Assembly (NCBI GenBank): GCA_001780955.1
Contig: MFJR01000007.1
Coordinates: 75,053-139,052, forward strand
Direction of reading: 5' to 3'
From: Candidatus Gottesmanbacteria bacterium RIFCSPLOWO2_01_FULL_39_12b
GTDB lineage: Bacteria > Patescibacteriota > Microgenomatia > 2-02-FULL-39-11
DNA length: 64,000 nt
The notes beneath the pieces are model-generated. The model worked only from the letters and a program-made list of their open reading frames with translations, was not told where the DNA came from and did no database searches. Below are positions 5,679 to 35,120 of the stretch, piece by piece (position 1 is the stretch's first letter; each line of letters opens with the position of its first letter). The translations under genes were made by a program, and so were the position numbers.

Positions 5679-6461
5679 ATGTTTAAAGATATAGTAGTTT
5701 TTTTGCGCTATAAGGATTTGTTAATTAATCTGACAGAGAGAGAAATTAAAGCTCGCTATAAACAGTCCATACTGGGCTATTTTTGGGTTATTCTTAACCC
5801 TTTTTTGCAAATGCTGGTAATGACTTTTATCTTTTCTATTGTTATGAAAGTACCCTCATTAGGAGTACCTTACCCAATATTTTTATATGTAGCTCTCCTA
5901 CCATGGAACTTTTTTTCCAACTCGCTTTCTTCTTCAATGAATAGTTTGGTTGCAAATAGTTCATTGATTACAAAAATATATTTCCCAAGGGAAATCTTGG
6001 TTTACTCTACGGTTTTTGCGAAAGTAATCGATCTTATACTGGCAGTATCTATACTTGTGATATTTATGATAATTTATAGAATACCAGTTTCAACTAGAAT
6101 TCTATGGGTCCCGGTTATATTTATAATCCAACTTATTTTTACCACCGGCCTCTCTCTGATACTGTCAACTTTTAATCTATTTTACAGAGATATACAGTAT
6201 TTAGTAAGTTTAATGTTAATGTTATGGATGTATTTAACACCCGTAATCTATCCGGTTGAAATAATTCCAAACGAATACAGATTCATTCTCTCCTTAAACC
6301 CTATGGCTGTATTTGTTAATGCATATAGACAGGTTATTCTAGGCGGCGGCGATCCAAACCTTAATAGTTTAATAATAGGTGTGATTGTATCTTTATTTGT
6401 TTTCCTGGCAGGATTTTCGATATTCAAGAAATTAGAGGGAATTTTTTCTGATGTAGTTTAA
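5679..6461 (+). CDS. ABC-2 type polysaccharide/teichoic-acid export permease (Wzm/TagG/KpsM-like)
   Basis: 260 aa, 6 TM. N-terminal LTEREIKARYKQSILGYFWVILNPFLQM is the classic ABC-2 signature. It lies immediately upstream of the ATPase. Confidence 0.85.
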   Translation: MFKDIVVFLRYKDLLINLTEREIKARYKQSILGYFWVILNPFLQMLVMTFIFSIVMKVPSLGVPYPIFLYVALLPWNFFSNSLSSSMNSLVANSSLITKIYFPREILVYSTVFAKVIDLILAVSILVIFMIIYRIPVSTRILWVPVIFIIQLIFTTGLSLILSTFNLFYRDIQYLVSLMLMLWMYLTPVIYPVEIIPNEYRFILSLNPMAVFVNAYRQVILGGGDPNLNSLIIGVIVSLFVFLAGFSIFKKLEGIFSDVV

Positions 6462-6465
6462 ATTT

Positions 6466-7215
6466 ATGGATAATAATCAGTCAAATCATACTCAAGTACT
6501 TAATATTAATAGAGTTTCTAAAAAATATTTCCTTCAGAAGCAGAAAACTTTTAAAGAATTCTTACCCTCATTAGTGTTAGGAGGTACTTGGGCTAAGGAT
6601 TTTTGGGCTTTGAAGTCAATCAATATCTCCCTAAACAAAGGAGATTCATTAGCGGTGGTTGGTAAAAACGGCGCTGGTAAATCTACACTGTTAAAACTTA
6701 TTGCCGGCGTTACCTCTCCGACTGTAGGTAAAATTATGGTTAAGGGCCGTGTAGCTCCCCTGATTGAATTGGGTGCAGGTTTTCACCCTGAACTGACGGG
6801 AAAAGAGAATATCTATCTGAATGGGTCGATTTTGGGTATGAAAAGGGGCGAAATTGACAAAAAATATCATGAGATCGTTGAGTTTTCAGAACTGCGAGAG
6901 TTTATAGATCAACCGATCAAGCATTATTCTTCTGGAATGTATATGAGGTTAGCCTTTTCAGTGGCCATTGCGGAAATGCCGGAAATACTGCTTATCGATG
7001 AAATCTTTGCGGTTGGGGATGCTGATTTTCAAAAAAAATGTCTTGACAAATTGAAAGAATTTCAAAAGAACAAAGTTTGCATGATTATTGTTAGTCATTC
7101 CCTTGAACAAATAAAGAATTTTTGCAATTTGGGTATGGTTCTTAGGAAAGGTGAGCAGGTATTTTTCGGTGAGATTAATCAGGCAATTGAGACTTATAAG
7201 AAGTTATTAGATTAA
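6466..7215 (+). CDS. ABC transporter ATP-binding protein (Wzt/TagH/KpsT-like), short form without C-terminal carbohydrate-binding domain
   Basis: Walker A GKNGAGKST, ABC signature YSSGMYMRLAFS, Walker B ILLIDE, H-loop IVSH. 249 aa. Confidence 0.9.
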   Translation: MDNNQSNHTQVLNINRVSKKYFLQKQKTFKEFLPSLVLGGTWAKDFWALKSINISLNKGDSLAVVGKNGAGKSTLLKLIAGVTSPTVGKIMVKGRVAPLIELGAGFHPELTGKENIYLNGSILGMKRGEIDKKYHEIVEFSELREFIDQPIKHYSSGMYMRLAFSVAIAEMPEILLIDEIFAVGDADFQKKCLDKLKEFQKNKVCMIIVSHSLEQIKNFCNLGMVLRKGEQVFFGEINQAIETYKKLLD

Positions 7216-8583: not shown

Positions 8584-9705
8584 ATGAAGATAGGAATTGA
8601 TATCAGCATGCTGGCATACACAGGAAGTGGGGTAGCAACATACACCTATAACTTAGCAAAGAACTTGCTAATATATGATAAGAAAAATGAATATATTCTC
8701 TTCTACAGCTCATTTAGAAAGCCAAGGGGTTTTTATTACCTGATAGAATTGGAGAGACTGGGAGGGAAAATAATTAACCTCATCCTTCCGCATACATTTC
8801 TCAAATTATGCTGGAATAAATTTAGTTTGCTTCCTGTTGAGCGCTTTATAGGTAAAGTCGACGTTTTTCATTCTTCTGATTATCTTAGACCACCTTTATT
8901 TAAGAATACTTTAGGAATTACGACGATTCATGATCTGACCTGGAAAATATTCCCTGAATTTCATACCAAAGAAATAATAGAAGCTCATGAAAATAAACTG
9001 GAAAAGACAGTAATCTTTGGTGATATAATTATCGTTGATTCTTATAACACTAAAAAAGATCTTATTAAATATTATCCTCAATTGCACCCAAAAAATATTT
9101 TCGTTATCTATCCCGGAGTCGATAATAAGTTTAAACCCATTAAAGATGAGCAGTTAGTAAAAAAGAAATTGACTAAGTATGGTATTGATACCAGAAATAG
9201 ATTTTTGCTCTATGTTGGAGCAATAGAACCGCGTAAAAATTTAGTTACCGCCATAAAGTTATATTACGAGTTGATAAAAGACAGAAGCTATTCCGATTTT
9301 AATTTTATTATAGTCGGCCGGGCTGGTTGGAAAAACGAAGAGGTTTTCCAAACAATCAATAATTTAAAATTAACTGATAAAGTGAAGATTATTGGCTTTG
9401 TTGAGGATCAAGATCTGCCATATATTTATAACGCGGCGCAGGTTTTTATTTATCTATCAAAATACGAAGGATTTGGATTGCCGCCTCTGGAAGCAGGCAA
9501 ATGCGGGATTCCTTCCCTGATTTACCTTAATTCTTCGCTTCAGGAAATTTTTCCTTCCGATTATCCGTTTGCCCAAAAAGGTAGCGAATTGGAAACTTTA
9601 ATTGATTTAATTAAAATACGGTACAAACCGTATCAAAAACATTTGGAAAAATTTAGCTGGAAATCTTACTGCGATATATATCTAGATATCGTCAAAAGTC
9701 ATTGA
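8584..9705 (+). CDS. GT4 family glycosyltransferase
   Basis: YEGFGLPPLEAGKCGIPS plus an N-terminal GT-B domain. Its 3' end overlaps the convergent gene by 7 bp. Confidence 0.8.
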   Translation: MKIGIDISMLAYTGSGVATYTYNLAKNLLIYDKKNEYILFYSSFRKPRGFYYLIELERLGGKIINLILPHTFLKLCWNKFSLLPVERFIGKVDVFHSSDYLRPPLFKNTLGITTIHDLTWKIFPEFHTKEIIEAHENKLEKTVIFGDIIIVDSYNTKKDLIKYYPQLHPKNIFVIYPGVDNKFKPIKDEQLVKKKLTKYGIDTRNRFLLYVGAIEPRKNLVTAIKLYYELIKDRSYSDFNFIIVGRAGWKNEEVFQTINNLKLTDKVKIIGFVEDQDLPYIYNAAQVFIYLSKYEGFGLPPLEAGKCGIPSLIYLNSSLQEIFPSDYPFAQKGSELETLIDLIKIRYKPYQKHLEKFSWKSYCDIYLDIVKSH

Positions 9706-11915
9706 AATTTTATCCACCGGAAATTCACAGCCAGATCTCGATTATCCAGACGACTTAATACCTGCGACGGTTTATAAGTATTTGCGTAAGTAAATCTTAT
9801 TTGATGGACATCTTTTGATATACCGTTTGGGATAGGCAAGTCATATTGTTGCCATTTTGTTGAAAGTAGTTTAGTTGCTAATAGTTTTCCGTCAATAAAG
9901 ACTGTAATTGTTTGCGGCTCTGCAAGAGTTTGCGCTTCAAATGAAAGCTTTTGATAATCATTATTCTTCGCTACCAATCTTAAGGTTGACTCTTTTCCTT
10001 GCGTCCACCTATTGGCACTTTCTTTCACACTCCAGCCGGTTAGGAGTAAACTGTCCTCAGCTTCGCTTTTTCCTAAAGTAATGCTTGAAAGGTTTTCTGA
10101 TCGATCAAGGAGACAAGAAGTACTATCACAGAGTCTTCCCATGAGATAATATGGATTTTCCCAGACGATATTATTTAGTAAAATTTTTGGGGAATTGTAT
10201 ATAATTGACACCTTTGGTATTAGAACAAGACTATTATCTGGTATTATTTTTTTTGTTTTGTCATATTGATAAGGTGAGTAAACAGGGAGCGGATACAAAA
10301 AATATTCAGTCCAAATTTGTCTCCAGTAGCTTTCTAAACCGGAAATAGCCTGATCTGTATAAATCAATTCTTTCAAATTCTTTAGATTGTGAATTTCACC
10401 AAGAGAGATAAGAGATCTGTCAACAATAATGCGTTCTTTGATAAAACGCCGGTTTAGCTTGACAGCAAAAAGAATCTCTAAAGAAAGTAGAATCGTAAGA
10501 ATTCCCATTAAGAGTTTCCTTTTTTTGCTTAAATATTCCAGTAATCCGATAGAGAAAAGTACGATGAAAAATGGAAGAGAATAGGTGAGTGATCTATTAT
10601 ATGCAAAGAAATTATGATGTAAAATCGCTGTCCATGTAAAAAAGAAACTATAAAGAGCTAAAAAACTTACTGCCAGTAATTTATATCTTATAGTAAGAAA
10701 TCCCTTCAGGATAATAAATAAGGTAAGAAGGCTTAATATAGAAGCTGCAATTAAACGCATAGGTTCCATCGCGTGAATACTGTAAAATCCCATTGCTTCA
10801 AAAGGATTAGCATAGGGAATTTTGGTTCGAAATAGTGCCCATCCAATTGGATCGTCAATTTTTGAGGCTTGTATGAAATCAACAACGAAAGACTTTACTA
10901 TGGAAATAGAAGCTGTAATTGCAATAATGATACATATCCTAATTACGGGCAATATTAGTTTTACGCTTTTTTTCAAAAGAGAATAAAGTATTATAAATAA
11001 GATTAGCGGGGGGATAATAAGTATTACGGCTTCGTGATAGGCAAAGTAAAAAACAGTTGTAGTAAATCCAATGATATAATCAAATCTGGTAAAGTTTTTT
11101 TTGAAAGGTTCTGAAGAAGAAAAATATGAAAAGAGAAAAATCAGCAAGAAAAGTTCAACACCCCAGAAAAAAACTTGACCGAAAAAATCATGATATAACA
11201 TATACAGGAGATTAGAATTGAACATAAACAGAAAGGTCGATAAGATAAGACCTAAAATTTTTGGTTTATAGAGGGTTGAAAACAGGATATAAATAAGTGG
11301 AATGGTTAAACCGAATAAAATGGTCTGAAATAAATACGTGTATTGATATCCCTTTATTTGGAAAATGTTGAGGAAGAAGGACGAAAGTAAAGGGGTACCC
11401 CACCTAAATCCACGAAATAATAAATTTCCAGTGACTTCATCTGTTGGTTTTAGATCGATTACTTTTGTCTGAAAATACTCAAAAATTGAATGGTTAACCA
11501 GATATTCAGGTGTTTGTGCGTATACAATAACATCATTATTTCCCATTGAAATAGTTGTGAGTATTTTGTCATTACGTATAAGTGGAGACAAATTGAAAAC
11601 AATACTTGTGGCAATAAGTAAACCAATCAATATATCCTCCTTCAAACGAAAATTATATCGTAATTTCTTCTTCCAGAATGCGTAAAAATTCAAAAAAAGC
11701 AAAAATCCTATAAGATATGGACAAATCTGATTTACCGAAAGACCAGCCAGGCTAAAAATAGTAAGAAAAAATATGAGAAAAACGACTGTAAACCACGGGG
11801 TAAGCCAAAAGGTATAAGGATGCAATTGCTTTGGAGCTAACAGCAAGGTAAGTCCGAAGCCCAAAAAGAATAAAATGAAAATAGTTAGGATTGAATATAG
11901 AAATATTAGAATCAT
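9699..11915 (-). CDS. Large polytopic membrane protein, paralog family 1 member a: ~500 aa TM domain plus a ~230 aa C-terminal extracytoplasmic domain. Candidate GT-C glycosyltransferase or polymerase, unassigned family
   Basis: 738 aa. N-terminus MILIFLYSILTIFILFFLGFGL...WLTPWF and first-loop motif GNNDVIVYA. C-terminal block LLLTGWSVKESANRWTQGKESTLRL...YKPSQVLSRLDNRDLAVNFRWI. Clear paralog of 11925-14144 and 14152-16362. Confidence 0.6.
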   Translation of the reverse strand: MILIFLYSILTIFILFFLGFGLTLLLAPKQLHPYTFWLTPWFTVVFLIFFLTIFSLAGLSVNQICPYLIGFLLFLNFYAFWKKKLRYNFRLKEDILIGLLIATSIVFNLSPLIRNDKILTTISMGNNDVIVYAQTPEYLVNHSIFEYFQTKVIDLKPTDEVTGNLLFRGFRWGTPLLSSFFLNIFQIKGYQYTYLFQTILFGLTIPLIYILFSTLYKPKILGLILSTFLFMFNSNLLYMLYHDFFGQVFFWGVELFLLIFLFSYFSSSEPFKKNFTRFDYIIGFTTTVFYFAYHEAVILIIPPLILFIILYSLLKKSVKLILPVIRICIIIAITASISIVKSFVVDFIQASKIDDPIGWALFRTKIPYANPFEAMGFYSIHAMEPMRLIAASILSLLTLFIILKGFLTIRYKLLAVSFLALYSFFFTWTAILHHNFFAYNRSLTYSLPFFIVLFSIGLLEYLSKKRKLLMGILTILLSLEILFAVKLNRRFIKERIIVDRSLISLGEIHNLKNLKELIYTDQAISGLESYWRQIWTEYFLYPLPVYSPYQYDKTKKIIPDNSLVLIPKVSIIYNSPKILLNNIVWENPYYLMGRLCDSTSCLLDRSENLSSITLGKSEAEDSLLLTGWSVKESANRWTQGKESTLRLVAKNNDYQKLSFEAQTLAEPQTITVFIDGKLLATKLLSTKWQQYDLPIPNGISKDVHQIRFTYANTYKPSQVLSRLDNRDLAVNFRWIKFQ

Positions 11916-11924
11916 TGGTAAATA

Positions 11925-14144
11925 TCAATTCTGTGTAAGCCAAATCCTACGAAAATTCAAAGCGAGATCTCTTGTATCCTGAGTTTTTAAGATTTCAGAC
12001 GGCTTATATGAATATGAGTATGTGAGACGTATTTGGTGAACACCTTTAGGTATTCCTTCCGGAATGTAGAAAGTATACTTTGACCATTGAGTCAAGGCCT
12101 GTTTTGTTCCTAATAGTTTTCCATCAAAATAGACAGTAACAGTTTGTGGCTCCTTTAGTGTTTGAGCTTCAAAAGATACTTGATTAAAGCCAGAATTCCT
12201 AGTAATTAATCGAAGAGTTGATTCTTCCCCTGTCGCCCATCTATTCGTCATCTCTCTTACGCTCCAGCCGGTTAGAAGTAAACTATCCTCTGCTTCACTT
12301 ACCCCTAAAGTAATACTTGAAAGGTTTTCAGGTCGATCAAGAAGACATTCTGTGCTGTTACAGATTCTTCCCAGTTTATAATATGCATTTTCCCAGACGG
12401 TTGATTTAAGGAGTATTTGAGGAGGTTTAAACCATGGTGTAGGTTTAGACAGCAGTATAAGACTATTATCAGGAATTCTATTTTCGAAAGGAGTTACGAT
12501 AGAAGTTAATGAGGGTAATGGTTTACCATTATACAGGAAATAACTTGTCCATATTCGTTTCCACAGAGGAATATTATCATCAATTAATCCCTCCATAAAT
12601 ATCGGTTCGGAAAAAGAATTCGAAGAGGGTAATTCTTGCAGAGAGATTAACGATTTATCAACCACAAGATGTTCACTGCGAAATCTCTTGTTGAGTTTAA
12701 TAGCAGAAAAAAGTTCTAAAATGATAATACCGGCTAAAATATATCTTTTCAGTAAAATACGGTTTTTGACGATCTGTGTAATACCGATAGAAAATAAGAC
12801 AAGAATAAGCGGTAAATTAAAGGTGAGGCTTCTGTTATAAGCCCAAAAATTTGGATAAATAAAGGAATAGAGGAAGAGAATAAAAGAATAAAAAGCTATG
12901 TAGCAAAAGAGAAAAAGTCGATTTTTTGACTTAAATAAACCATAAAAAATGATTACGATCGTTCCTAAGCTCAAAAGAATAGCAATAAAGATCGGAAGAG
13001 GTTCAAAAGAGTGAATACTATATAAACCTATCATTTCAAATGGATTTGCATACGGAATGCTATTGCGGAAAAGTGTCCATCCGATAGGCTGATTTGGATT
13101 TGCGCCAATAGATTGATAATAATTAACAATAATAGATTTTATGATAGTAGAGAAACTGGTTAGACCTGTAATTAACATTACTTTAATTAGTGACCAAAAA
13201 TTACCCGATTTGCCATTTTTGAGGAGTAGTTGAATTACATAGAACAATAAAAGAGGGAATAAAACAAAAATGGCACCTTCATGATAGGAAAAAAATAGAA
13301 CACTAATACTTATTCCCAAGGTAATATCATATAAATTTATTAATTTAGTTTTAGTTTTAGCCCCAAAGATATAAGCAATTAAAAATATTAAAATGAATAA
13401 CTCAAGACCCCAATACAATATTTGTCCTGAGAAGTTATGGTAAAGTATATAAAGTAGATTTGAATTGAATGCCGTAACGGTCAGAATCAATACTAGAGAT
13501 ATTAGTGATGGCCTAAAAATGATTTTGGCTAAGATATACCCTAAGGGTAACATCAGAGAATAAATAACCGCGTGAAAAATTGATATATACTGATAAGCTT
13601 TTAAATTAAAAATCATTTGAAAAAATGAGATGACGATTGGAGGTCCCCATCTGTTTCTTTCGACTAATAAATCACCGACTTCAGTTGGTATATTTCCTTT
13701 AACACTATCAGTTATTGGGTGCTTTATAAGATAATCGGAATTGACTGCATAATCGATAATATCATTATTTCCCAGAGACAGGCTTGTCGGATATCGGTAA
13801 TACCTAAATAAAGGAGACAGGTTAGATAAGATACTAATGATTATTATTGCTCCGATGATAAAATCTTCTTTTAAATTGATTTTAAATATTGTTTTATTTT
13901 TAATAAATACATAAAAATTGGTAAATGATAATAGAACAAATAATGGAGCTATTATTTTTGAAATACTGAAACCCATCCGTCCAAAAATCACCAGAATAAA
14001 TATCAATATTACAATTGCATACCACGGTGTGAGCCAAAGCCTGTGTTTTTTAAGAGCTCGGGGCGTTAACAGGTATCCTAGTCCGTATCCTGAATAAAAC
14101 AGGATAAAAATTGTAGCAAAAGAATAAAATAGTATCGATATCAT
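11925..14144 (-). CDS. Large polytopic membrane protein, paralog family 1 member b
   Basis: 739 aa. MISILFYSFATIFILFYSGYGL...WLTPWY, SLGNNDIIDYA. C-terminus LLLTGWSVREMTNRWATGEESTLRL...YKPSEILKTQDTRDLALNFRRI. Confidence 0.6.
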   Translation of the reverse strand: MISILFYSFATIFILFYSGYGLGYLLTPRALKKHRLWLTPWYAIVILIFILVIFGRMGFSISKIIAPLFVLLSFTNFYVFIKNKTIFKINLKEDFIIGAIIIISILSNLSPLFRYYRYPTSLSLGNNDIIDYAVNSDYLIKHPITDSVKGNIPTEVGDLLVERNRWGPPIVISFFQMIFNLKAYQYISIFHAVIYSLMLPLGYILAKIIFRPSLISLVLILTVTAFNSNLLYILYHNFSGQILYWGLELFILIFLIAYIFGAKTKTKLINLYDITLGISISVLFFSYHEGAIFVLFPLLLFYVIQLLLKNGKSGNFWSLIKVMLITGLTSFSTIIKSIIVNYYQSIGANPNQPIGWTLFRNSIPYANPFEMIGLYSIHSFEPLPIFIAILLSLGTIVIIFYGLFKSKNRLFLFCYIAFYSFILFLYSFIYPNFWAYNRSLTFNLPLILVLFSIGITQIVKNRILLKRYILAGIIILELFSAIKLNKRFRSEHLVVDKSLISLQELPSSNSFSEPIFMEGLIDDNIPLWKRIWTSYFLYNGKPLPSLTSIVTPFENRIPDNSLILLSKPTPWFKPPQILLKSTVWENAYYKLGRICNSTECLLDRPENLSSITLGVSEAEDSLLLTGWSVREMTNRWATGEESTLRLITRNSGFNQVSFEAQTLKEPQTVTVYFDGKLLGTKQALTQWSKYTFYIPEGIPKGVHQIRLTYSYSYKPSEILKTQDTRDLALNFRRIWLTQN

Positions 14145-14151
14145 AGCGAGG

Positions 14152-16362
14152 CTACGTTTTTATGAATCGTATCCATCTGAAATTCACCGCAAGATCCCGT
14201 GCATCTTGATTTTTAAGTATCTCAGAAGGTTTATACGTGTGTGTGTATTGAAAGCGTACAGTATGTATCCCCTGGGATATTCCTCCGGGAATCTGAAATG
14301 TATAAGTTGACCAGTTCGTTGTGAGCGGTTGTGTTCCGGCAAACGTATCATCAATAGAAACACTGATAGTTTGTGGTTCAGAAAGGCTATATGCCTGGAA
14401 GGCTAACTGTGTATACCACTCTTTCGTAACAAGTCGAAGAGTAGATTCTTTACCAGTTGACCATCTGCTGGTTGACTCTTTGCCGCTCCAACCCGAAATG
14501 AGAAGACTATCTTCAAAAGTTGTTTCTCCCATAGTAACACCAGAGAGATTTTCCGGTCTATCCAAAAGGCACTCTCGGCTGTTACAGAGGCGTCCTAAAA
14601 CATAATATTTATTTTCCCAGATGAGAGGAGATTTGAGGAGGATTTGTGGGGGATTGGACCGTGGTGCGGGTTTAGAAAGAAGAATAAGACTGTTATCCTG
14701 AGGTTTTTTTTGGGATTTTTTTGGATGCAGGAAATATTCTGTCCATAATGCTTTCCATAAAGGAATTTCTCCAATGAGTTCGTACTCAGTATACATTGGT
14801 TCATTTAATAAACCTAAGTCTTTTATATTTAATTGGGTAAGTGATACAAAAGATTGGTTGACTGATACATATTCCTGATTCATTCGTTTATTTAATTTTA
14901 CAGCAGAAAATAGTACTAAACTGATAAGTGCAATAGCTATGACCGTGGTGGATTTCTTTTTTATCAAAAAAAATTCGTTTAAACCGATAGTAAAAAGAAC
15001 TAATATGAATGGTAAGGTATATGTCACTGCCCGATAATAATCAAAAAAATTATGTTGAACTAGAGACGTCCAATAATACAAAAACACATAGACGATCAAA
15101 AAACTGGTTAAAAGAAGTCTGTTTTTAGATTTCAGGAGACCAAAGAGTATGGTTATGACGACTAATAAACTTACCAATATCGCAAGAATAACCGGTAGAG
15201 GTTCGAAGGCGTGCATGCTATAGAAACCCATCATTTCAAATGGATTTGGATACGGCACGTTGTTTCTAAATGCCTGCCAGCCAATAACTGCATTTTTATC
15301 CGTGTAATTCTTAAGAAATCGAGTGATAGTTTCATTGGCCCCAAAGAAAAAAGGGATAGAGCTGGTAATAATGGTAATAATAAATATTTTAGATAAGGCC
15401 GGCCAGTAATCGAAAGTAAATTTTTTTAAAAAAAATCGTAACAGAACAAATACCGCCAATGGACCAATAACAAAAATTCCTCCATAGTAATATGAATAAT
15501 ATATAACTGCTAATGTTATACCGAGGATAATATCGTATAGAGCCACCTCTCTTTTTGCTGGTTCGTTTGAACCAAAATATAAAAAGAGAAATATAAGAAA
15601 AAAAGTATAAAGCCCGAGGAATAAAATATGGCCAAAAAAGTTGTGGTAAAGAATATACAGTAAATTGACATTAAAAGTAGCGAATATAAGGATTGAGAAT
15701 AAGCTAAAGAGAGTTGGTTTATATAGGATTTTCAGAAGAATAAATACTAAAGGAATGTGTAAGGCATATAATATTACTTGGGATAAGTACGTGTATTGAT
15801 ATCCCTGCAGGTGGAAAAGGTTTTGAAAAAAAGCAGCAAAAATTGGAGGTCCCCAACGGTAGATATTGTGAAACATATCATATACATTCGCATTTGCATT
15901 TAATACATTCTGACGCAGTAATGCAACATTTTTATACATAAGGGTATCTATAATATAATCAGAACTGGCTGCATAATTTACCGCATCATTATTTCCTAGA
16001 GATACTGTGGTGAGAAATTTTTCGTATTTGATCAAAGACATAAGATTAAAGAAAATACTTACCAGAACAAAACAAGCAATAATCACATCTTCCTTATTTA
16101 CGCGAGGGCCCTTAGTTTTTAAAAAAACGTATATGTTAAGTAATAGAAGAGAACCGATGATAATAGGTGATGCCTGGCGAACTGTAAATCCAAGCAGATT
16201 AAGAATAATGAGGATAAATACAAGAAAGATTATAGTAAACCAGGGCGAAAGCCAAAGTGCGTATAATTGAAGTTTTTTTGGTAGAAAAAAGTGAGTTATG
16301 CCATATCCCAAGAAGAATAAAACCAAAATTGTCGCGAGTGAATAGAAAAATATCGAAATCAT
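14152..16362 (-). CDS. Large polytopic membrane protein, paralog family 1 member c
   Basis: 736 aa. MISIFFYSLATILVLFFLGYGI...WLSPWF, SLGNNDAVNYA. C-terminus LLISGWSGKESTSRWSTGKESTLRL...YKPSEILKNQDARDLAVNFRWI. Confidence 0.6.
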   Translation of the reverse strand: MISIFFYSLATILVLFFLGYGITHFFLPKKLQLYALWLSPWFTIIFLVFILIILNLLGFTVRQASPIIIGSLLLLNIYVFLKTKGPRVNKEDVIIACFVLVSIFFNLMSLIKYEKFLTTVSLGNNDAVNYAASSDYIIDTLMYKNVALLRQNVLNANANVYDMFHNIYRWGPPIFAAFFQNLFHLQGYQYTYLSQVILYALHIPLVFILLKILYKPTLFSLFSILIFATFNVNLLYILYHNFFGHILFLGLYTFFLIFLFLYFGSNEPAKREVALYDIILGITLAVIYYSYYYGGIFVIGPLAVFVLLRFFLKKFTFDYWPALSKIFIITIITSSIPFFFGANETITRFLKNYTDKNAVIGWQAFRNNVPYPNPFEMMGFYSMHAFEPLPVILAILVSLLVVITILFGLLKSKNRLLLTSFLIVYVFLYYWTSLVQHNFFDYYRAVTYTLPFILVLFTIGLNEFFLIKKKSTTVIAIALISLVLFSAVKLNKRMNQEYVSVNQSFVSLTQLNIKDLGLLNEPMYTEYELIGEIPLWKALWTEYFLHPKKSQKKPQDNSLILLSKPAPRSNPPQILLKSPLIWENKYYVLGRLCNSRECLLDRPENLSGVTMGETTFEDSLLISGWSGKESTSRWSTGKESTLRLVTKEWYTQLAFQAYSLSEPQTISVSIDDTFAGTQPLTTNWSTYTFQIPGGISQGIHTVRFQYTHTYKPSEILKNQDARDLAVNFRWIRFIKT

Positions 16363-18170
16363 GGAAGGTCATCTATTCTTTTCATAGGAGTAATTGTACC
16401 TAATTGATAATAATCATTCTCCCAAATTTTATTTGTATATATTAACTTCTTCCCTTCTCGCTCCAGATAATTTTTTTCAGCAAGAACTAATCTGATATTC
16501 GCTACATTATCTTTTTCTGTTACAAGGTTTTGCAAAGTAACAATATCTCTATCCATTAAAAAATATTCACGCCACAGTCTTTTCCACAGATTGTCTTCTC
16601 CAAGATACACATCAGAGGTAAAAAATGGTTCTATGATGTCTTTCTTCTTATTCAGTTGCGTGAGTGAAATAAGTGATTTATCAACAACTTGCGCATGCCA
16701 ATATAATTGATAGAGAGTTCTCTGTGCTGACCGAAAAGATAAAAAAAGAAAAAGTACAATAATAGTGAACTTTATCATTTTATTTTTTATCAGTGAGAAT
16801 AGAAAGCACATCCCTATACTAAAAAGAGCAGAATAAAGAAAAAGAGTATAGGTGATTGCTCGATGGAAACTAAAAAAATTTGGGAAAATCCATCTTAAAC
16901 TTACATAAAATGGTATCCATGCTAAAAGAAGGGAGAGAATAAAAAGTTTCTTTCTTAAATTTATAATTCCCAGTAACCATATAACCGCTATAGGAAAACC
17001 AAAAATGATATCAAGGAAGACAGGTAAATCTTTGGAGTGATAAAGGTTGTAAAATCCTGTCATATCGAGCGGGGAAGCAAAAGGAATATGTTCCCACCCG
17101 ATAAAGGAGCTTTGTGTCGAGGAAGTAATTATCTTCACATTTTGCCCAATAGCAGTGCCTGCTGTTATAGGGTTAATAACCAAAGTCAAGAGAAGGATTT
17201 TGAGAAAATATATTCCGTGTATCGGATTCCTATCTTTAAGGAGGCTCAAAATTCCAAAAACAAGAAGCGGCAGGATGGCAAAAATGAGTCCTTCAGGATA
17301 AATTGTTGTTATTGCAGATAATGCAAGAGCGATTAATAAATCATACGAATTAAAGTTCCTCAGATCTTTTTTTTCTTCAGAAATATATGCATGAAAGAGG
17401 ATGACCACAAGAATAAAAATCCCGGTGAAAATAAACTGAGCGTAGAAAACGTTATAGAGCATGTACAGGAGAGTAGCATTTAAGGAAAAAGTAATAAAAG
17501 AAAAAGAGAGAATATGCATATTGTGCTTTTGGCTTAATCGTTTTGCCAATATGTATACCAGCGGAAAAGAAAAAGTGAAAAAGATAGTGATAATGGTAGA
17601 ATAAATCTGATAGGATTTAAGCCTGAAAACGTATGAAAAAAAGCTTAACAGGATGGGGCTTCCCCAACGAAAACCTGCATGAAGAAGGTCTCCTGTTGCT
17701 CCAAGATAGGGTTTATAATGCTCAAACGTTCCTCCTTCCAAGACGGTGTGGTTGATAAGGAAATCTCCAACGGGGGTATAAGAAAGAGGATCGAGATTGC
17801 TTAAGGAAATAGTAGTTGGGAACCCAACTTTTGTTAACAGAGGAAATAAATTAAAGAAAAGAGTAAATCCAACAAGAAGAGTCGTAAAAAGAAATTCGAG
17901 GGTCAAAAAAGGAAGGGTCTTTCGCGCAATGAGACTAGCAATAAATAAAATGCCGGCACAAGCAAGAATAAAATATGCACTTTTTGCAACAGGAATTTGG
18001 GCAAGATTAAAAATAATACTCAGAACTGCAATAAGAATAGTTCCCACCCATGGAGTAAACCAAATAGCGTCTTTTCGTAGATTTTTGGGAATAAGCAAAG
18101 CTGTAAATCCATATCCAACAAAAAATAAAACAGCAATGATTTTTACTAAAAGTATAATAATGTCAATCAT
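16359..18170 (-). CDS. Polytopic membrane protein, paralog family 1 member d, lacking the C-terminal soluble domain
   Basis: 603 aa. MIDIIILLVKIIAVLFFVGYGF...WFTPWV, SLSNLDPLSYT. It ends soon after the TM region. ATGA overlap with member c. Confidence 0.55.
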   Translation of the reverse strand: MIDIIILLVKIIAVLFFVGYGFTALLIPKNLRKDAIWFTPWVGTILIAVLSIIFNLAQIPVAKSAYFILACAGILFIASLIARKTLPFLTLEFLFTTLLVGFTLFFNLFPLLTKVGFPTTISLSNLDPLSYTPVGDFLINHTVLEGGTFEHYKPYLGATGDLLHAGFRWGSPILLSFFSYVFRLKSYQIYSTIITIFFTFSFPLVYILAKRLSQKHNMHILSFSFITFSLNATLLYMLYNVFYAQFIFTGIFILVVILFHAYISEEKKDLRNFNSYDLLIALALSAITTIYPEGLIFAILPLLVFGILSLLKDRNPIHGIYFLKILLLTLVINPITAGTAIGQNVKIITSSTQSSFIGWEHIPFASPLDMTGFYNLYHSKDLPVFLDIIFGFPIAVIWLLGIINLRKKLFILSLLLAWIPFYVSLRWIFPNFFSFHRAITYTLFLYSALFSIGMCFLFSLIKNKMIKFTIIVLFLFLSFRSAQRTLYQLYWHAQVVDKSLISLTQLNKKKDIIEPFFTSDVYLGEDNLWKRLWREYFLMDRDIVTLQNLVTEKDNVANIRLVLAEKNYLEREGKKLIYTNKIWENDYYQLGTITPMKRIDDLP

Positions 18171-20416
18171 TATTTTATTTCCTCCAAAGAGATATGCGTA
18201 AATTTTGCAGAAAGTAATCTATTATCAAAATTGCCAGGGATTACTTCAGAAGGTCGATAGTCGGAAGAGAAAAGAAAATAGACAAAATTAATACCTTCAC
18301 TTAGTTCTTGATTGATTGGTATAGAGAAATTTTCTAAATTAGTAGTTAGTTTTATTTCTGTAATCTTTTTTTTGTTTAAATATATTTTCGTTTTTAGATC
18401 TTTATAAAAAGCCGCAGCTCGAAAATTCAAGTTAAATTTACGTGGTTTTAGCACTTTGAACATAATTGAAGCGTTCTTCCAAGACCAACGAAAACCCTCT
18501 TCTCTAACATTCCACCCGGCACCTAAAAACATATCATCATCTAAAGATCCGATATCAATAGCTAAATATTCCTTTTTATCCGGATTTCTTTGCCAAAGAG
18601 AAAAATGGTTATCTGTAAGCGTTTTATTAAATCCTAAGCTGGTGAGTCCTGCGGAAATAGTGCCAGCAAAGGTTCGATTATCATCAAGAAGAAAATACTT
18701 CAAATCAAGAAAATTAATGCTGTCAATACTTCTCTTATAATCCAATGTTTTCCAGCGGGATAGGTCACTTTTATCAACTCCTCCATTATATTCCAAATTA
18801 TCATCCATTAATCTTCCCATATATCCCAAAAACGGATTTCTTTTATAATAATCCGATTTAAAATAAGGTATTCTTCCCATATATCCAGCTAAAACGGGTT
18901 TTTTATGTATATTTTGTCCTTCTACAAACTCCAATCCATTACTATTACCAAAATAAGTAAATCCGTCTCTTACTACAGATGGAGCCTCCATAACAGTTAT
19001 GTTACTAGGATCGTTTGCAATAGCTTTATATGCATTATATGGAATATATCGCTGAGGCGGAACAGGTATTTTGAAATAATGGTCGAGAAAAAAAATAGCT
19101 ATGAAAATAAAGAAAAAAATAGTTTTTATTTTTTTCCCTTTACCCGATAACAAATAGTCAAATAAATACGCGCAGATAATATAGGAAAAAAATATGAAAG
19201 CTACAATTAGACGACCCGGAATTCTAATGTTTGCCATAAAAGGAAGATAATGGAAGATAACAAACGGTAATGGGATAACTATTCGGATTTCATCATCCAG
19301 GGTAAATCCCCATTTACCTAATATATGAAGAAATGGTCCAAGAGTGAGAATCCAAAAAACTCCGGAAATATATAAATATGGTCTAATAAGCAGATAAAGC
19401 TTAGGTGGAAGTTTATTTTTTAATTTTAGTATAAATAAAGTGATAAAAGTAAAAATTATAAAAAGTCCCGGGTAACTAAAATTTTCAAAAATTCGCGAAG
19501 CAAATTTGAAATGAGTACCCCAGAAACCCGCTATTGGACTTAGAAAGTAGCTATAAATACTCGGGATAAAAAATCCAAACAGATCAGAAGAAAATTCTAT
19601 TGCGCCTCCCCACCCGTTAGTTTTAGGTAGCCCTTCAAATAGGTATGTTTCATATAGGACTTTGAGCCATGGAATAAGAAAGGTTACAATCAAAAGAATA
19701 CTAAGAAGTATATATTTCAGATTATCTTTGACTACATGAAGAAAAGATTTTTGTGAGAATATAAGACCATAAATTGCAAATAGAGAAATAGATAAGACAA
19801 TCATTATGAAATAATATAAATTTAAATAAAGAGAGAGAACAAAAAATAATGCAGTCCCAGCTGAAAATAGAAATTTGGTCTTTTGGTCAAATTCTTTGAA
19901 TAATGAATACCCACAAAGGAAAAACCAGGGAAATACATAAGTTGACATGAAATTTAAATGACCCACACGTGGCGTGAGAAATGTCATATAACCGAACGCC
20001 AATCCTAATAAGTATGAAGTCATTTGCGAAATTCCCAGTTTCCGCAGTAACAGATACATTCCAATGTTGGAAAATATTAAGCCTGCAGCGACTATAATGG
20101 CTAAAGATTGGTGCTCCGAAAAGAAAGGCCTAAGTAATACAAAATAAAATCCATTTCCTGAATCTGTAGAAGTAAAATCTAATCCGAAAGGATACAAGAC
20201 TGCGTTTGAGTGTGCAAAGGGATTTTTCCCACTCATAATGTTCTGATAGACTTTATCCATTGCCCATTCCGCAACAAACACCTCTCCATATCTTGCTCCT
20301 ACTTTTGAATTATCAAAAAAAATTTCTGCCCAAAAAGAATGAAAAAATACAAGATTCACTAAAAAATATCCGCAAAGGAAAAAAATAGAGGTATATTTGT
20401 TTAGAATTTGTTTCAT
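18170..20416 (-). CDS. Large polytopic membrane protein, paralog family 2 member a, with a C-terminal extracytoplasmic domain related to that of family 1
   Basis: 748 aa. Motifs NPFAHSNAVLYPFGLDF, GWGGAIEFSSDLFGFFIPS, PLPFVIFHYLPFMANIRIPGR. C-terminus GAGWNVREEGFRWSW...YRPSEVIPGNFDNRLLSAKF. Confidence 0.6.
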   Translation of the reverse strand: MKQILNKYTSIFFLCGYFLVNLVFFHSFWAEIFFDNSKVGARYGEVFVAEWAMDKVYQNIMSGKNPFAHSNAVLYPFGLDFTSTDSGNGFYFVLLRPFFSEHQSLAIIVAAGLIFSNIGMYLLLRKLGISQMTSYLLGLAFGYMTFLTPRVGHLNFMSTYVFPWFFLCGYSLFKEFDQKTKFLFSAGTALFFVLSLYLNLYYFIMIVLSISLFAIYGLIFSQKSFLHVVKDNLKYILLSILLIVTFLIPWLKVLYETYLFEGLPKTNGWGGAIEFSSDLFGFFIPSIYSYFLSPIAGFWGTHFKFASRIFENFSYPGLFIIFTFITLFILKLKNKLPPKLYLLIRPYLYISGVFWILTLGPFLHILGKWGFTLDDEIRIVIPLPFVIFHYLPFMANIRIPGRLIVAFIFFSYIICAYLFDYLLSGKGKKIKTIFFFIFIAIFFLDHYFKIPVPPQRYIPYNAYKAIANDPSNITVMEAPSVVRDGFTYFGNSNGLEFVEGQNIHKKPVLAGYMGRIPYFKSDYYKRNPFLGYMGRLMDDNLEYNGGVDKSDLSRWKTLDYKRSIDSINFLDLKYFLLDDNRTFAGTISAGLTSLGFNKTLTDNHFSLWQRNPDKKEYLAIDIGSLDDDMFLGAGWNVREEGFRWSWKNASIMFKVLKPRKFNLNFRAAAFYKDLKTKIYLNKKKITEIKLTTNLENFSIPINQELSEGINFVYFLFSSDYRPSEVIPGNFDNRLLSAKFTHISLEEIK

Positions 20417-20447
20417 AATATGGTAAAAATTACCTTATTGTATTACA

Positions 20448-22307
20448 TTAATCTATAAATTTCCTCTCATATAAATCATAGACCCCATCATTCATGATCT
20501 TTTTGAAATCTACTTTTGAGATTATAGAAGATATTGCCGGGGTATATTTTTCATTATTTTTAAGGATTATATATTTCACATTTAAACTATTTAGTTCTTG
20601 GAGGACTAGAGAAGAAGTTATAGCGAATGGTATTATATTCGGCTCCTTTGGTTTTTCTGAATAAGGATTATAATTCCCTTTATCTATTATCTTCGCTATA
20701 TAATTTATAAATCTCATATTCTTGTAACCAATAAATACTTCTTCTGGTACTCGGGCAAGATATCCGCCGATGATCGGTTTTCCGTGAATAAGCTGTCCAT
20801 ACATAGGGAGTATTCCATGGACAAAACCAATATAATTAAAACCATCTCTTACTGTAAAAGGAACATCTAATACTGTCTTTTGGTCATTTTGATTTTTTAA
20901 ATACTGGTAAATTTTTACAGGGGCATTCTCAACCATCTTTTGGGAAATAGTATAAAATTGATCAAAAAAGAAAATAACAAACAAACATACTAATAAAATT
21001 ATCTGTTTTTTCTTACTTATCCTTGTCAATACAAAATTAATCACATAAGCAGTGACAATGCAGGCAAAAAATACGAAAGCCGGAGTAAATCTGGCGGTGG
21101 CTCTAATAGTTGATAAGCCTGGAATATAATGAAGTAATAAAAAGGGGAGAGGTAAGACAACGGAGACACCATCAAGATTGATAAACCAGCGATTAAATAT
21201 TTTCAAAAATGGACCCAACATCAAGATATAAAAAAAACTACTAACTATAAAATAGGGTTTTATCAGTTGCCATAATTTTTGAGGAAATCTATTGAAGATT
21301 TTCAATATAGTAACAGTTAGATAAATCAATACGATGATGATTCCTGGATAACTAAATCTTTCCAGGCTGTTAAGGAAAAAGTATTGATATTTTACAAATA
21401 ACGGAACAATTGAGGTGATTTTATTGAAAATAATATTATACAGAGGATTAAATTCACTCGGTGTTATAAAACTTGCCAAGTCAGATGATAAAGTTATTGA
21501 TCCTCCAAATCCGGGAGTTTTAACTAGTCCTTGGGTTTTGATTAAATTATAAACTGATAATATCCAGGGAATAAGGAAAAAAATTGCTGAAATAATAGAT
21601 AAAAACAAATAGGTGACATTTCTTGATAAAAGTTTTAAAAACTCCTTTCTGTCAGTAAAAAACCAGTATCCTGCAGAAAATAACAATCCAAGCACTATTG
21701 TAAAAAAGTAATAGAAATTACTCAAAAGAACCGTTGCCATGCATAATCCTAAAACCAGACAAAAGATAAATCTTTCTATTGTTTTATTTGATTCAAATAA
21801 TTTTTTTAGTGCTATAAATACTAAAGGAAAAAAGTATATAGATATATAAGCATAATGACCCAGAACTCTATGAGATAAAAATGGTGTGAATCCAAAAATT
21901 AAACTAACTAATATTGATAAGTATTGATCGATCTTTAATTTTCTTAGTAATAAATACATAAAAAAATTATTTAAGAAAAATCCAAATAAGATAATAATCA
22001 GTAGAGATTTATGGGAATTAATAAGTGGCCGGAAAATAAAAAACGGTAAAACATAAGCAGTATTGGGATCATTCAGGGAAAAATTAGTAGTAAATGGGTA
22101 TAGAATAGATTTTGTGACAAAAGGATTTTTAAATTGAAGTATATTTTGGTAACTTGTCTCAATTAAATATTCTGTAACGATATTATCACTGACCATTATC
22201 CTATTTCCAAAAAGTTCACCCCAGAGAGAAAAATTAAAAATTAAATTAATAAAAAGGAAAACAAAAATAGGCAATATAAAACGAAGTTTTTTCTTCATTT
22301 TAAGCAT
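20448..22307 (-). CDS. Polytopic membrane protein, paralog family 2 member b, C-terminal domain absent
   Basis: 619 aa. NPFVTKSILYPFTTNF, GFGGSITLSSDLASFITPS, PLPFLLLHYIPGLSTIRATAR. Terminates where member c's C-domain begins. Confidence 0.55.
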   Translation of the reverse strand: MLKMKKKLRFILPIFVFLFINLIFNFSLWGELFGNRIMVSDNIVTEYLIETSYQNILQFKNPFVTKSILYPFTTNFSLNDPNTAYVLPFFIFRPLINSHKSLLIIILFGFFLNNFFMYLLLRKLKIDQYLSILVSLIFGFTPFLSHRVLGHYAYISIYFFPLVFIALKKLFESNKTIERFIFCLVLGLCMATVLLSNFYYFFTIVLGLLFSAGYWFFTDRKEFLKLLSRNVTYLFLSIISAIFFLIPWILSVYNLIKTQGLVKTPGFGGSITLSSDLASFITPSEFNPLYNIIFNKITSIVPLFVKYQYFFLNSLERFSYPGIIIVLIYLTVTILKIFNRFPQKLWQLIKPYFIVSSFFYILMLGPFLKIFNRWFINLDGVSVVLPLPFLLLHYIPGLSTIRATARFTPAFVFFACIVTAYVINFVLTRISKKKQIILLVCLFVIFFFDQFYTISQKMVENAPVKIYQYLKNQNDQKTVLDVPFTVRDGFNYIGFVHGILPMYGQLIHGKPIIGGYLARVPEEVFIGYKNMRFINYIAKIIDKGNYNPYSEKPKEPNIIPFAITSSLVLQELNSLNVKYIILKNNEKYTPAISSIISKVDFKKIMNDGVYDLYERKFID

Positions 22308-22366
22308 TATACTACGAAAATGTCTTAATCCTAGAGAACGAATTAAATCAATTTATTTCAAAATTC

Positions 22367-35119: not shown

Positions 35120-35120
35120 T

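What the first reader, a model, noticed from the sequence alone, without database searches (positions are those of the whole stretch)
9699..10420. Shared C-terminal extracytoplasmic module carried by both membrane-protein subfamilies
**Conserved module**
- The last ~130 aa of the five long paralogs share a common architecture, even though the TM domains of family 1 and family 2 are not recognisably alike.
- Signature: GW(S/N)V.E....RW(T/S).GK..T... , then ...Y(K/R)PS(E/Q)(V/I)....D.R.L(A/G).(N/K)F.

**Gene-by-gene**
- Family 1 (9699-11915, 11925-14144, 14152-16362): LLLTGWSVKESANRWTQGKESTLRL ... YKPSQVLSRLDNRDLAVNFRWI.
- Family 2 (18170-20416, 22367-24625): GAGWNVREEGFRWSW ... YRPSEVIPGNFDNRLLSAKF, and VSGFSVAEDGFRWTYGK ... 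HKPSTVFPDNKDERELGLKF.

**Interpretation**
A portable beta-rich domain attached to different membrane cores suggests a common substrate- or acceptor-binding (lectin/CBM-like) function.
Basis: seen in the sequence. Interest (0 to 1): 0.7.

Follow-up and report, generated by a model that had tools for sequence, protein, structure and literature searches.

The report
CBM-like domain on membrane glycosyltransferases

Summary
The last 131-135 residues of the five long paralogs are homologous. Family-1 versus family-2 pairs give BLASTP E 1e-13 to 1e-17, shuffle z 19-27, and profile-profile probability 99.9% (E 2e-32). The transmembrane cores and the linker domains do not align.

It belongs to a large family: 2142 clusters at 50% identity. 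Pfam captures this family only partly, as DUF7024, and the window copies score below Pfam's threshold.

Elsewhere the module occurs singly or in tandem on other exported enzymes: PMT_2 and GT22-type GT-C transferases, Sulfatase-type domains, an AlgX-type domain, and lipoproteins.

The most likely role is binding the exported glycopolymer acceptor. This is inferred, not shown. Organism: Patescibacteria, Roizmanbacteria-like.

The parts
9702..10094 (-). C-terminal module of F1a (residues 608-738)
   Evidence: Translation; module profile hit E 5e-50; AF2 model of this segment pLDDT 96.5, all-beta.
11928..12326 (-). C-terminal module of F1b (residues 607-739)
   Evidence: 63% identical to the F1a module.
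14155..14550 (-). C-terminal module of F1c (residues 605-736)
18173..18577 (-). C-terminal module of F2a (residues 614-748)
   Evidence: BLASTP E 1.6e-15 to the F1a C-terminus.
22370..22771 (-). C-terminal module of F2b (residues 619-752)
   Evidence: weak Pfam DUF7024 match, E 0.031, covering profile positions 27-144 of 145.
10095..11915 (-). F1a GT-C core (14 TM helices, residues 1-494) plus family-1-specific extracytoplasmic linker domain (495-607)
12327..14144 (-). F1b GT-C core plus linker
   Evidence: 42% identical to the F1a core, E 3e-149.
14551..16362 (-). F1c GT-C core plus linker
   Evidence: 42% identical to the F1a core.
16359..18170 (-). F1s: family-1 paralog (603 aa) that ends where the module would begin
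   Evidence: Aligns to F1a residues 1-596; no module hit.
18578..20416 (-). F2a YfhO/DUF6311-like GT-C core plus linker
   Evidence: 35% identical to F2s. F2s passes the Pfam YfhO threshold.
20448..22307 (-). F2s: family-2 paralog (619 aa) without the module
   Evidence: Pfam YfhO PF09586 E 2.7e-7, 29.8 bits against a cut-off of 28.5; aligns to F2b residues 19-617.
22772..24625 (-). F2b YfhO/DUF6311-like GT-C core plus linker
   Evidence: 46% identical to F2s; homologs carry precomputed PF19830 hits.
35103..36041 (+). GT2 with two C-terminal TM helices (GtrB/CsbB-type architecture); candidate maker of the polyprenyl-phosphate-sugar donor (context, inferred)
   Evidence: Pfam Glycos_transf_2; C-terminal hydrophobic helices.
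42638..43609 (+). Second GT2 with two C-terminal TM helices (context, inferred)
   Evidence: Pfam; hydropathy.
5679..7215 (+). Wzm/Wzt-type ABC-2 exporter pair; candidate exporter of the acceptor polymer (context, inferred)
   Evidence: Pfam ABC2_membrane and ABC_tran. The same pair lies next to F1/F2 arrays in a related genome.

Best explanation
Each of the five long genes encodes a GT-C-fold membrane glycosyltransferase. Its extreme C-terminus is a discrete beta jelly-roll domain of about 131-135 residues on the outer face of the membrane.

The domain has the galactose-binding-like fold shared by CBM6, CBM35 and CBM36. It is a divergent member of a large family of exported domains that Pfam catalogues only in part, as DUF7024.

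Proposed mechanism (inferred):
1. Cytoplasmic GT2 and GT4 enzymes of the locus build a glycopolymer, and the Wzm/Wzt transporter exports it.
2. The two GtrB/CsbB-type GT2 enzymes charge polyprenyl phosphate with sugars.
3. The GT-C paralogs transfer those sugars onto the exported polymer outside the cell.
4. The C-terminal module binds the polymer acceptor and holds it next to the active site. This would raise affinity or fix the register.

What is shown: homology, module boundaries, fold, extracytoplasmic location, portability, and the GT-C nature of both carriers.

What is inferred: glycan binding, the identity of the ligand, and the pathway logic.
For: **Homology and boundaries.**

**Fold.**
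- AF2 model of the module: pLDDT 96.5, about ten strands.
- Foldseek agrees: CBM6 and BcsB, E 4e-7 to 2e-5.

**Family size and architectures.**
- 2142 representatives at E <= 1e-3.
- Among the top 150 hits: 48 on family-1 cores, 30 on family-2 cores, and 72 on other or unassigned proteins, mostly with 2-4 tandem copies.
- Partner domains in 46 scanned proteins: Sulfatase 12, PMT_2 8, Glyco_transf_22 4, and one AlgX/SGNH.
- DUF7024 is the only Pfam family hit repeatedly by isolated modules: 8 of 40, best E 3.7e-7.

**Location.**
- F1: 14 TM helices with K/R-rich odd loops, placing the C-terminus outside. A Cys pair, C596/C601, is invariant just upstream of the module.
- F2: the loop before the last TM is strongly positive.
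- Soluble multi-module relatives have lipoprotein signal peptides.

**Carriers.**
- D128 is invariant in the first outward loop.
- F2s passes the Pfam YfhO threshold.

**Accessory nature.** Short paralogs F1s and F2s end exactly at the module boundary. About half of the F2 homologs lack the module.

**Precedent.** GT-C enzymes with beta-sandwich CBMs that bind their glycan acceptors: EmbC (PMC3044687) and AftD (bioRxiv 10.1101/2019.12.22.885152). A beta-rich C-terminal domain is also described in the GT136 enzyme of an ABC-transporter-dependent O-antigen locus (PMC11127046).

**Local conservation.** Among the three F1 paralogs of this genome, the module (54-63% identity) is better conserved than the TM core (43-44%). 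This is consistent with a shared ligand.
Against: - No binding data exist for any member of this domain family. A search of the literature library for 'DUF7024' returned nothing.
- No CAZy-type CBM family in Pfam matches at a significant level. No solved structure is a sequence relative.
- I could not inspect model coordinates. I therefore do not know whether the universally conserved residues (G20, W/F21, E25, W30, Q61, P109, D117, R119) form a surface site or a structural core. They could, for example, form a structural Ca2+ site of the kind seen in CBM6/35; that comparison is from memory.
- The full-length model has pTM 0.90 and only a short connection to the module. This suggests a rigidly packed cap rather than a tethered CBM.
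- Family-wide, the module is no better conserved than the core. The local excess between F1a and F1b coincides with raised third-codon-position identity, so it may reflect gene conversion.
Confidence: 0.6

Rival explanations
1. The module is a structural cap. It packs on the extracytoplasmic face of the GT-C core and stabilises it, or forms part of the acceptor channel. It has no independent lectin activity.
For: - The full-length model has pTM 0.90 with only a short connection (about residues 603-611) between linker domain and module.
- The universally conserved residues could be a folding core.
- AftD also contains a purely structural beta sandwich besides its CBMs (bioRxiv 10.1101/2019.12.22.885152).
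Against: - The same domain occurs in 2-4 tandem copies, and on unrelated catalytic domains and plain lipoproteins. That is hard to reconcile with a role specific to one membrane core.
- Short paralogs without the module are kept next to long ones in many genomes, so the cores do not need it to fold.
Confidence: 0.2
2. The module is a cell-wall anchoring or localisation domain. It binds peptidoglycan, an S-layer or another wall polymer to position the enzymes, rather than binding the acceptor they modify.
For: Tandem arrays on exported lipoproteins and enzymes resemble the way cell-wall-binding repeats are used. The CBM-like fold fits this equally well.
Against: - In the GT-C carriers the module is already membrane-anchored through 12-14 helices and present as a single copy.
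- Its partners are all enzymes of classes that act on glycoconjugates.
- The tools available here cannot separate this rival from the best explanation.
Confidence: 0.12
3. The module mediates protein-protein contacts between the co-encoded F1 and F2 paralogs, so that they assemble into a multi-enzyme complex.
For: Interleaved F1/F2 arrays are conserved across Patescibacteria genomes. BcsB, a structural neighbour, forms oligomeric crowns according to the PDB entry titles.
Against: - Cyanobacterial and Verrucomicrobiota F1 relatives carry the module as lone genes within the 22 kb inspected.
- The module also sits on unrelated enzymes.
- There is no direct evidence for a complex.
Confidence: 0.05
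4. The similarity is an artefact of low-GC composition, or results from recent gene conversion between neighbouring genes.
For: The genome is about 33% GC. The F1a/F1b pair shows locally raised nucleotide identity at codons 600-640.
Against: - Shuffle z = 19-27; hhalign E 1.9e-32.
- F1-type and F2-type modules are only 23-29% identical. Each is much closer to its own type in other genomes, for example 66% to P0001.
- The family has more than 2000 clusters in other lineages.
Confidence: 0.01

Closest known systems
Pfam DUF7024 (PF22895), a domain of unknown function
   Same: - It is the only Pfam family hit repeatedly by members of this module family: 8 of 40 diverse modules (best E 3.7e-7) and 4 of 46 full proteins (best E 3e-15).
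- The F2b module aligns to nearly the whole model, positions 27-144 of 145.
   Different: - The window copies are below the gathering threshold: F2b scores 14.6 bits against 24.4, and the F1a and F2a modules give no hit.
- Most of the family found by exhaustive search is not recognised by the model.
- No function is attached to the name.
CAZy-type beta jelly-roll carbohydrate-binding modules (CBM6, CBM35, CBM36, CBM22, CBM29) and the carbohydrate-binding domains of BcsB
   Same: - Appended to carbohydrate-active enzymes, singly or in tandem.
- Conserved aromatic and charged residues.
   Different: - Sequence identity is only 5-17%, and no significant sequence match exists.
- The partners are biosynthetic membrane transferases, not glycoside hydrolases.
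- The ligand is unknown.
Mycobacterial GT-C arabinosyltransferases EmbC and AftD, with periplasmic CBMs
   Same: - GT-C core plus extracytoplasmic beta-sandwich modules thought to hold a polymeric glycan acceptor (PMC3044687; bioRxiv 10.1101/2019.12.22.885152).
   Different: - Different GT-C families, and no sequence relation between the modules.
- Here there is one terminal module, and module-less paralogs are encoded alongside.
YfhO / GtlB-type extracellular GT-C enzymes of three-component glycosylation systems (Bacillus, Listeria); GT136 ORF12 of Citrobacter youngae
   Same: - Family 2 is YfhO-like.
- GtrB/CsbB-type GT2 genes with two C-terminal TM helices are present in the window.
- Published model: a polyprenyl-phosphate sugar is transferred onto a wall polymer outside the cell (PMC5836110, PMC8035078).
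- GT136 also has a beta-rich C-terminal periplasmic domain and sits in an ABC-transporter-dependent locus (PMC11127046).
   Different: - B. subtilis YfhO has a 389-residue extracellular loop followed by a final TM helix (PMC5836110). F2 ends in a soluble domain plus the module.
- Family 1 matches no Pfam or NCBIfam model.
- No GtrA-type flippase was looked for.

Membership tests
Pfam DUF7024 (PF22895) | Score at or above the curated gathering threshold (24.4 bits) | tested here: not met
   F2b module scores 14.6 bits, E 0.031. The F1a and F2a modules give no hit at E <= 10. Full-length proteins give no hit at E <= 1.
Pfam DUF7024 (PF22895) | Homology to bona fide members through intermediate sequences | tested here: met
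   Proteins retrieved with the window's module profile (E <= 1e-17) include modules that hit DUF7024: 8 of 40, best E 3.7e-7, and 4 of 46 full proteins, best E 3e-15. No other family recurs.
Carbohydrate-binding module (beta jelly-roll, CBM6/35-like) | Beta-sandwich jelly-roll fold superimposable on solved CBMs | tested here: met
   [not shown]
Carbohydrate-binding module (beta jelly-roll, CBM6/35-like) | Sequence membership in an established CBM family | tested here: not met
   Only sub-threshold Pfam hits: CBM60 E 0.11, CBM-like E 0.054. Best PDB sequence hit to a CBM35 is E 0.0075. dbCAN/CAZy models were not available.
Carbohydrate-binding module (beta jelly-roll, CBM6/35-like) | Demonstrated carbohydrate binding | not testable with these tools
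   Needs glycan arrays, ITC or affinity electrophoresis with purified domain.
Carbohydrate-binding module (beta jelly-roll, CBM6/35-like) | Located in the same compartment as the glycan (extracytoplasmic) | tested here: met
   F1: 14 TM helices, positive-inside pattern, C-terminus out. F2: K/R-rich loop before the last TM, though one segment (382-404) is ambiguous. Relatives carry lipoprotein signal peptides.
GT-C fold glycosyltransferases (carrier, family 1) | Multi-spanning core superimposable on solved GT-C enzymes | tested here: met
   [not shown]
GT-C fold glycosyltransferases (carrier, family 1) | Conserved acidic residue or motif in the first large extracytoplasmic loop | tested here: met
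   D128 in the G-N-N-D motif is invariant in 72 sequences, within loop 117-188, which is predicted to be outside. A catalytic role has not been tested.
GT-C fold glycosyltransferases (carrier, family 1) | Uses a polyprenyl-phosphate-linked sugar donor | not testable with these tools
   Context only: two GT2 genes with two C-terminal TM helices in the window.
YfhO family (PF09586) (carrier, family 2) | Pfam gathering score | tested here: met
   F2s scores 29.8 bits against a cut-off of 28.5. F2a and F2b give no direct hit but are 35% and 46% identical to F2s over about 600 residues. Homologs carry precomputed PF19830 (DUF6311), PF09586 and PF24677 hits.

The most novel reading that the evidence does not exclude
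The module defines an unrecognised, very widespread carbohydrate-binding family, with more than 2000 clusters at 50% identity. It would be specialised for biosynthetic enzymes that modify glycopolymers outside the cytoplasm (several GT-C families, Sulfatase-type transferases, AlgX-type enzymes), as opposed to the degradative enzymes that dominate the known CBM families.

In Microgenomates-type Patescibacteria, interleaved arrays of module-bearing and module-less GT-C paralogs would then form a combinatorial system. That system would decorate one surface polymer at many positions, and the polymer could matter for attachment of these presumed episymbionts to hosts.
Probability: 0.3. Interest if true: 0.6.

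Novelty: new member of a known kind. Interest (0 to 1): 0.4.

Why it matters
**A domain definition.** The finding gives boundaries, a signature (G-W/F-x3-E-x3-R-W ... Q ... P-x7-D-x-R-x-L) and a confident fold to a large, mostly unannotated domain family. It links that family to DUF7024.

**Gene annotation.** Seven 'hypothetical' membrane genes of a candidate-phyla-radiation genome can now be read as outward-facing GT-C glycosyltransferases. Five of them carry a likely acceptor-binding module. This makes the surface-glycan biology of these uncultured bacteria testable.

**A tractable experiment.** The small soluble module can be expressed easily and screened for ligands. A hit would reveal what polymer this 64-kb locus builds.

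**Scope.** The design principle, GT-C plus a CBM-like domain, is already known from EmbC and AftD. The advance is therefore incremental.

Tried and rejected
- **Leptospira guess.** From the low GC and the WbqC/DegT genes I first guessed a Leptospira rfb locus. Homolog names point instead to Patescibacteria, Roizmanbacteria and Daviesbacteria.
- **Word-indexed protein search.** Searching with the five-sequence module alignment found only 2 hits. The exhaustive profile search was needed.
- **PDB by sequence.** Nothing significant with profiles A1, A3 or A5. The top CEACAM hits for A5 are chance matches to Ig domains.
- **AlphaFold-database fold search.** The afdb50 library was unavailable.
- **Locus search.** I used the full-length F1 alignment instead.
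- **Cluster names.** Looking up ten multi-module proteins gave almost no names or taxa.
- **F1 and F2 as diverged copies of one architecture.** The linker domains show no similarity (probability 0.1%) and the cores only 9-23%. Common GT-C ancestry is likely from the fold, but the module boundary is a real discontinuity.
- **Recent exchange of the module between F1 and F2 within this genome.** Rejected on identity: 23-29% between types, against up to 66% to the same type in other genomes.
- **F2 topology from hydropathy.** This left one ambiguous segment (382-404).
- **Literature.** Searches found no paper on DUF7024. None of the five papers returned for 'Roizmanbacteria' plus 'glycosyltransferase' appeared, from title and abstract, to concern these gene arrays.
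Full report
**1. What is in the sequence**

The window has about 33% GC and is one long glycan-biosynthesis region. It encodes:
- GT2 and GT4 glycosyltransferases and a Wzm/Wzt ABC-2 exporter pair (5679-7215);
- DegT aminotransferases, WbqC, methyltransferases and sugar-nucleotide enzymes.

Seven large membrane proteins are encoded head to tail on the minus strand between 9699 and 24625.

| Name | Coordinates | Length | Module |
|---|---|---|---|
| F1a | 9699-11915 | 738 aa | yes |
| F1b | 11925-14144 | 739 aa | yes |
| F1c | 14152-16362 | 736 aa | yes |
| F1s | 16359-18170 | 603 aa | no |
| F2a | 18170-20416 | 748 aa | yes |
| F2s | 20448-22307 | 619 aa | no |
| F2b | 22367-24625 | 752 aa | yes |

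Within family 1 the cores are 30-43% identical, and within family 2 they are 33-46% identical. Between the families BLASTP finds nothing better than E 0.06.

**2.

The similarity between families is strong and confined to the module.
- The C-terminal 160 residues of F1 versus F2 proteins align at 23-29% identity, E 7e-13 to 2e-17.
- Local alignment scores of 115-169 compare with about 28 +/- 5 for shuffled sequences (z 19-27), so composition is not the cause.
- I cut larger family alignments (72 F1 and 110 F2 sequences) into TM core, linker and module. The modules match with hhalign probability 99.9%, E 1.9e-32, over 129 columns. The linkers give probability 0.1% and the TM cores 9% (23% with an earlier alignment).

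The shared piece is therefore a sharply bounded module:

| Gene | Module coordinates | Residues |
|---|---|---|
| F1a | 9702-10094 | 608-738 |
| F1b | 11928-12326 | 607-739 |
| F1c | 14155-14550 | 605-736 |
| F2a | 18173-18577 | 614-748 |
| F2b | 22370-22771 | 619-752 |

All coordinates were confirmed by translation. The window holds exactly these five copies. The two short paralogs stop where the module would begin: F1s aligns to F1a 1-596 and F2s to F2b 19-617. The upper part of the given range (10095-10420) is the F1-specific linker domain, not the shared module.

**3. What the module is**

*Fold.*
- With a 41-sequence alignment, AlphaFold2 gives an all-beta model: pLDDT 96.5, pTM 0.89, about ten strands and two short helices.
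- Foldseek agrees.

*Sequence family.*
- No solved structure is a sequence relative.
- An exhaustive profile search of 1.84 billion cluster representatives finds 2142 proteins at E <= 1e-3 and 391 at E <= 1e-10.
- Of the best 150, 48 have an F1-type core and 30 an F2-type core. In both groups nearly all carry one C-terminal module; a few carry two.
- The other 72 are different proteins or core-less fragments, mostly with 2-4 tandem copies.
- In 46 of those other proteins (including two with weak F1-core matches), the partner domains are Sulfatase (12), PMT_2 (8), Glyco_transf_22 (4) and one AlgX/SGNH. There are scattered sub-threshold hits to galactose-binding-like families and BcsB.

*Relation to Pfam.* When 40 diverse isolated modules are scanned, DUF7024 is the only recurrent family: 8 of 40, best E 3.7e-7. 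The window's own copies fall below the Pfam threshold: F2b scores 14.6 bits against 24.4, and the F1a and F2a modules give no hit. The module is therefore a divergent branch of a family that Pfam captures only in part and calls a domain of unknown function.

*Conserved positions across all groups* (F1a module numbering): G20, W/F21, E25, W30, Q61, N/D68, P109, D117, R119, L121. R29 is conserved in the two local families. F1 modules add an E-D-S-L-L motif at 13-17, and F2 modules add G-I-N at 95-97.

**4. What carries it**

*Family 1.*
- It matches no Pfam or NCBIfam model.
- A full-length AF2 model built from 72 homologs is confident: pLDDT 93.2, pTM 0.90.
- The model has 14 TM helices. Across the family, the odd-numbered loops are K/R-rich and poor in acidic residues, and the short even-numbered loops have almost no K/R.
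- This places two regions and the C-terminal domains outside. The regions are the large loops 117-188 (invariant G125, D128, Y132, R171) and 351-387 (invariant G358, W359, R363, E373, G376).
- An invariant Cys pair, C596/C601, lies just before the module. This fits an oxidising, extracytoplasmic location (inference).

*Family 2.*
- It is YfhO-like. F2s passes the Pfam YfhO threshold, and homologs carry precomputed DUF6311 and YfhO hits.
- Its positive-inside pattern is clean up to TM9. The loop before the last TM is strongly positive (4.1 K/R, 0.2 D/E), which again puts the C-terminus outside. One segment (382-404) is ambiguous.

*Independent support for location.* Several soluble multi-module relatives begin with lipoprotein signal peptides.

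So the 'two membrane-protein subfamilies' are two sequence-unrelated families of one enzyme class: outward-acting GT-C glycosyltransferases.

**5. Organism and conservation of the arrangement**

- The best homologs (up to 55% identity) come from Patescibacteria MAGs, including Roizmanbacteria.
- A 540-residue fragment 100% identical to F2b is on an ENA metagenome contig.
- In GTDB genomes, the F1 family is found in Patescibacteria (Roizmanbacteria, Daviesbacteria). Distant module-bearing relatives (21-25% identity) occur in cyanobacteria (Coleofasciculus, Potamolinea) and a Verrucomicrobiota MAG.
- Interleaved arrays of F1 and F2 genes, some with and some without the module, recur in these Patescibacteria genomes. 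In at least one genome they lie next to GT2, GT4 and Wzm/Wzt genes.
- Among F2 homologs, about half are ~610 aa without the module and half ~750 aa with it.
- F1-type and F2-type modules are as distant from each other as from modules on other enzymes. The two fusions are therefore old.

**6. How it most likely works**

*Shown:* a portable, extracytoplasmic, CBM-fold domain at the C-terminus of GT-C enzymes, which can be dispensed with at a precise boundary.

*Inferred:* the locus builds a polymer in the cytoplasm and exports it through Wzm/Wzt. Two GT2 proteins with two C-terminal TM helices (35103-36041 and 42638-43609) have the architecture of GtrB/CsbB-type polyprenyl-phosphate sugar synthases. 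The GT-C paralogs then decorate the polymer outside. This follows the three-component model established for YfhO/CsbB and Gtr systems (PMC5836110, PMC8035078, PMC11127046). The module would bind the polymer acceptor.

*Precedents:* the lectin-like C-terminal CBM of EmbC (PMC3044687) and the three CBMs of AftD, which binds complex arabinans.

*Two cautions:*
- In this genome the three F1 modules are more alike (54-63%) than their cores (43-44%), which fits a shared ligand. Family-wide the difference vanishes.
- The F1a/F1b excess coincides with raised third-position identity at codons 600-640 (78% nucleotide and 69% third-position identity, against about 53% and 37% elsewhere). Old gene conversion is therefore an alternative explanation.

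*Confidence:* about 0.9 that the fold, homology and location statements are right, about 0.55-0.6 that the module binds a glycan, and less that the glycan is the enzyme's own acceptor.

**7. Rivals**

- A purely structural cap. This is favoured by the confident rigid packing in the full-length model. It is disfavoured by tandem arrays and unrelated partners.
- A wall-anchoring domain. This cannot be separated from the best explanation in silico.
- A contact surface between paralogs. Lone genes in other phyla argue against it.
- Composition or recent conversion. Refuted.

**8. Novelty**

GT-C enzymes with appended CBM-like domains are known, and the domain family is partly catalogued as DUF7024. 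This is therefore a new member of a known kind.

The useful products are:
- a clean domain definition;
- the link to a very large, functionally uncharacterised family attached to extracytoplasmic glycopolymer-modifying enzymes;
- recognition of family 1 as an unannotated GT-C family.

A dark GT-C family related to YfhO, STT3 and PglB has been reported from AlphaFold-database mining (bioRxiv 10.1101/2023.03.14.532539). Whether it is family 1 was not tested.

Noticed in passing
[not shown]
   Followed up: partly
window 1022-2674, 4487-5650, 37989-39875, plus 9699-24625: Besides the seven F1/F2 genes, three more GT-C-like membrane proteins are present (weak PTPS_related, PIG-V mannosyltransferase-like, GT87). 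That makes ten putative outward-acting glycosyltransferases in 64 kb of what is presumably a very small genome.
   Followed up: no
window ~9995-10115 versus ~12224-12344 (codons ~600-640 of F1a and F1b): Nucleotide identity of 78% and third-codon-position identity of 69% between F1a and F1b, against about 53% and 37% along the rest of the genes. This may be an old gene-conversion tract covering the Cys-pair region and the start of the module.
   Followed up: partly
window 25413-27236 (-): A 607-aa protein with an N-terminal class-I methyltransferase domain and a weak C-terminal coiled-coil signal (DMPK_coil at residues 559-585). The layout resembles WbdD-type chain terminators of ABC-transporter-dependent polysaccharide pathways. 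The Wzt here (249 aa) looks too short to carry a C-terminal CBM.
   Followed up: no
window 35103-36041 and 42638-43609 (+): Two GT2 proteins with two C-terminal hydrophobic helices. This is the architecture of GtrB/CsbB/ArnC-type polyprenyl-phosphate glycosyltransferases, which supply donors to GT-C enzymes.
   Followed up: partly
window 29292-30254 and 30259-31221 (+): Two tandem 320-aa paralogs with weak GH130/GH32 beta-propeller matches inside a biosynthetic locus. They could be glycoside-phosphorylase-like transferases rather than hydrolases.
   Followed up: no
window 31260-34361 and 39878-47231 (+): GNAT acetyltransferase, 3-hydroxyacyl-CoA dehydrogenase, thiolase, a TPP-dependent enzyme, a DHQ-synthase-like protein and an HpcH-type aldolase sit among the sugar genes. 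This suggests unusual acylated or branched sugars in the product.
   Followed up: no
P0007 (3570 aa); L006 1205-2254 and L011 4828-5880: One giant protein gives 18 partial matches to the middle of the module profile. Small ~350-aa ORFs (stop-to-stop) with one module and no F1/F2 core lie next to the F1/F2 arrays in two Patescibacteria genomes.
   Followed up: no
L004, L012, L016-L019: Several contigs carrying typical F1/F2 arrays are titled 'uncultured Gammaproteobacteria bacterium' (binchicken/SRP co-assembly MAGs). Their genes are 41-51% identical to the Patescibacteria family, so the titles are probably placeholder or wrong taxonomy.
   Followed up: no
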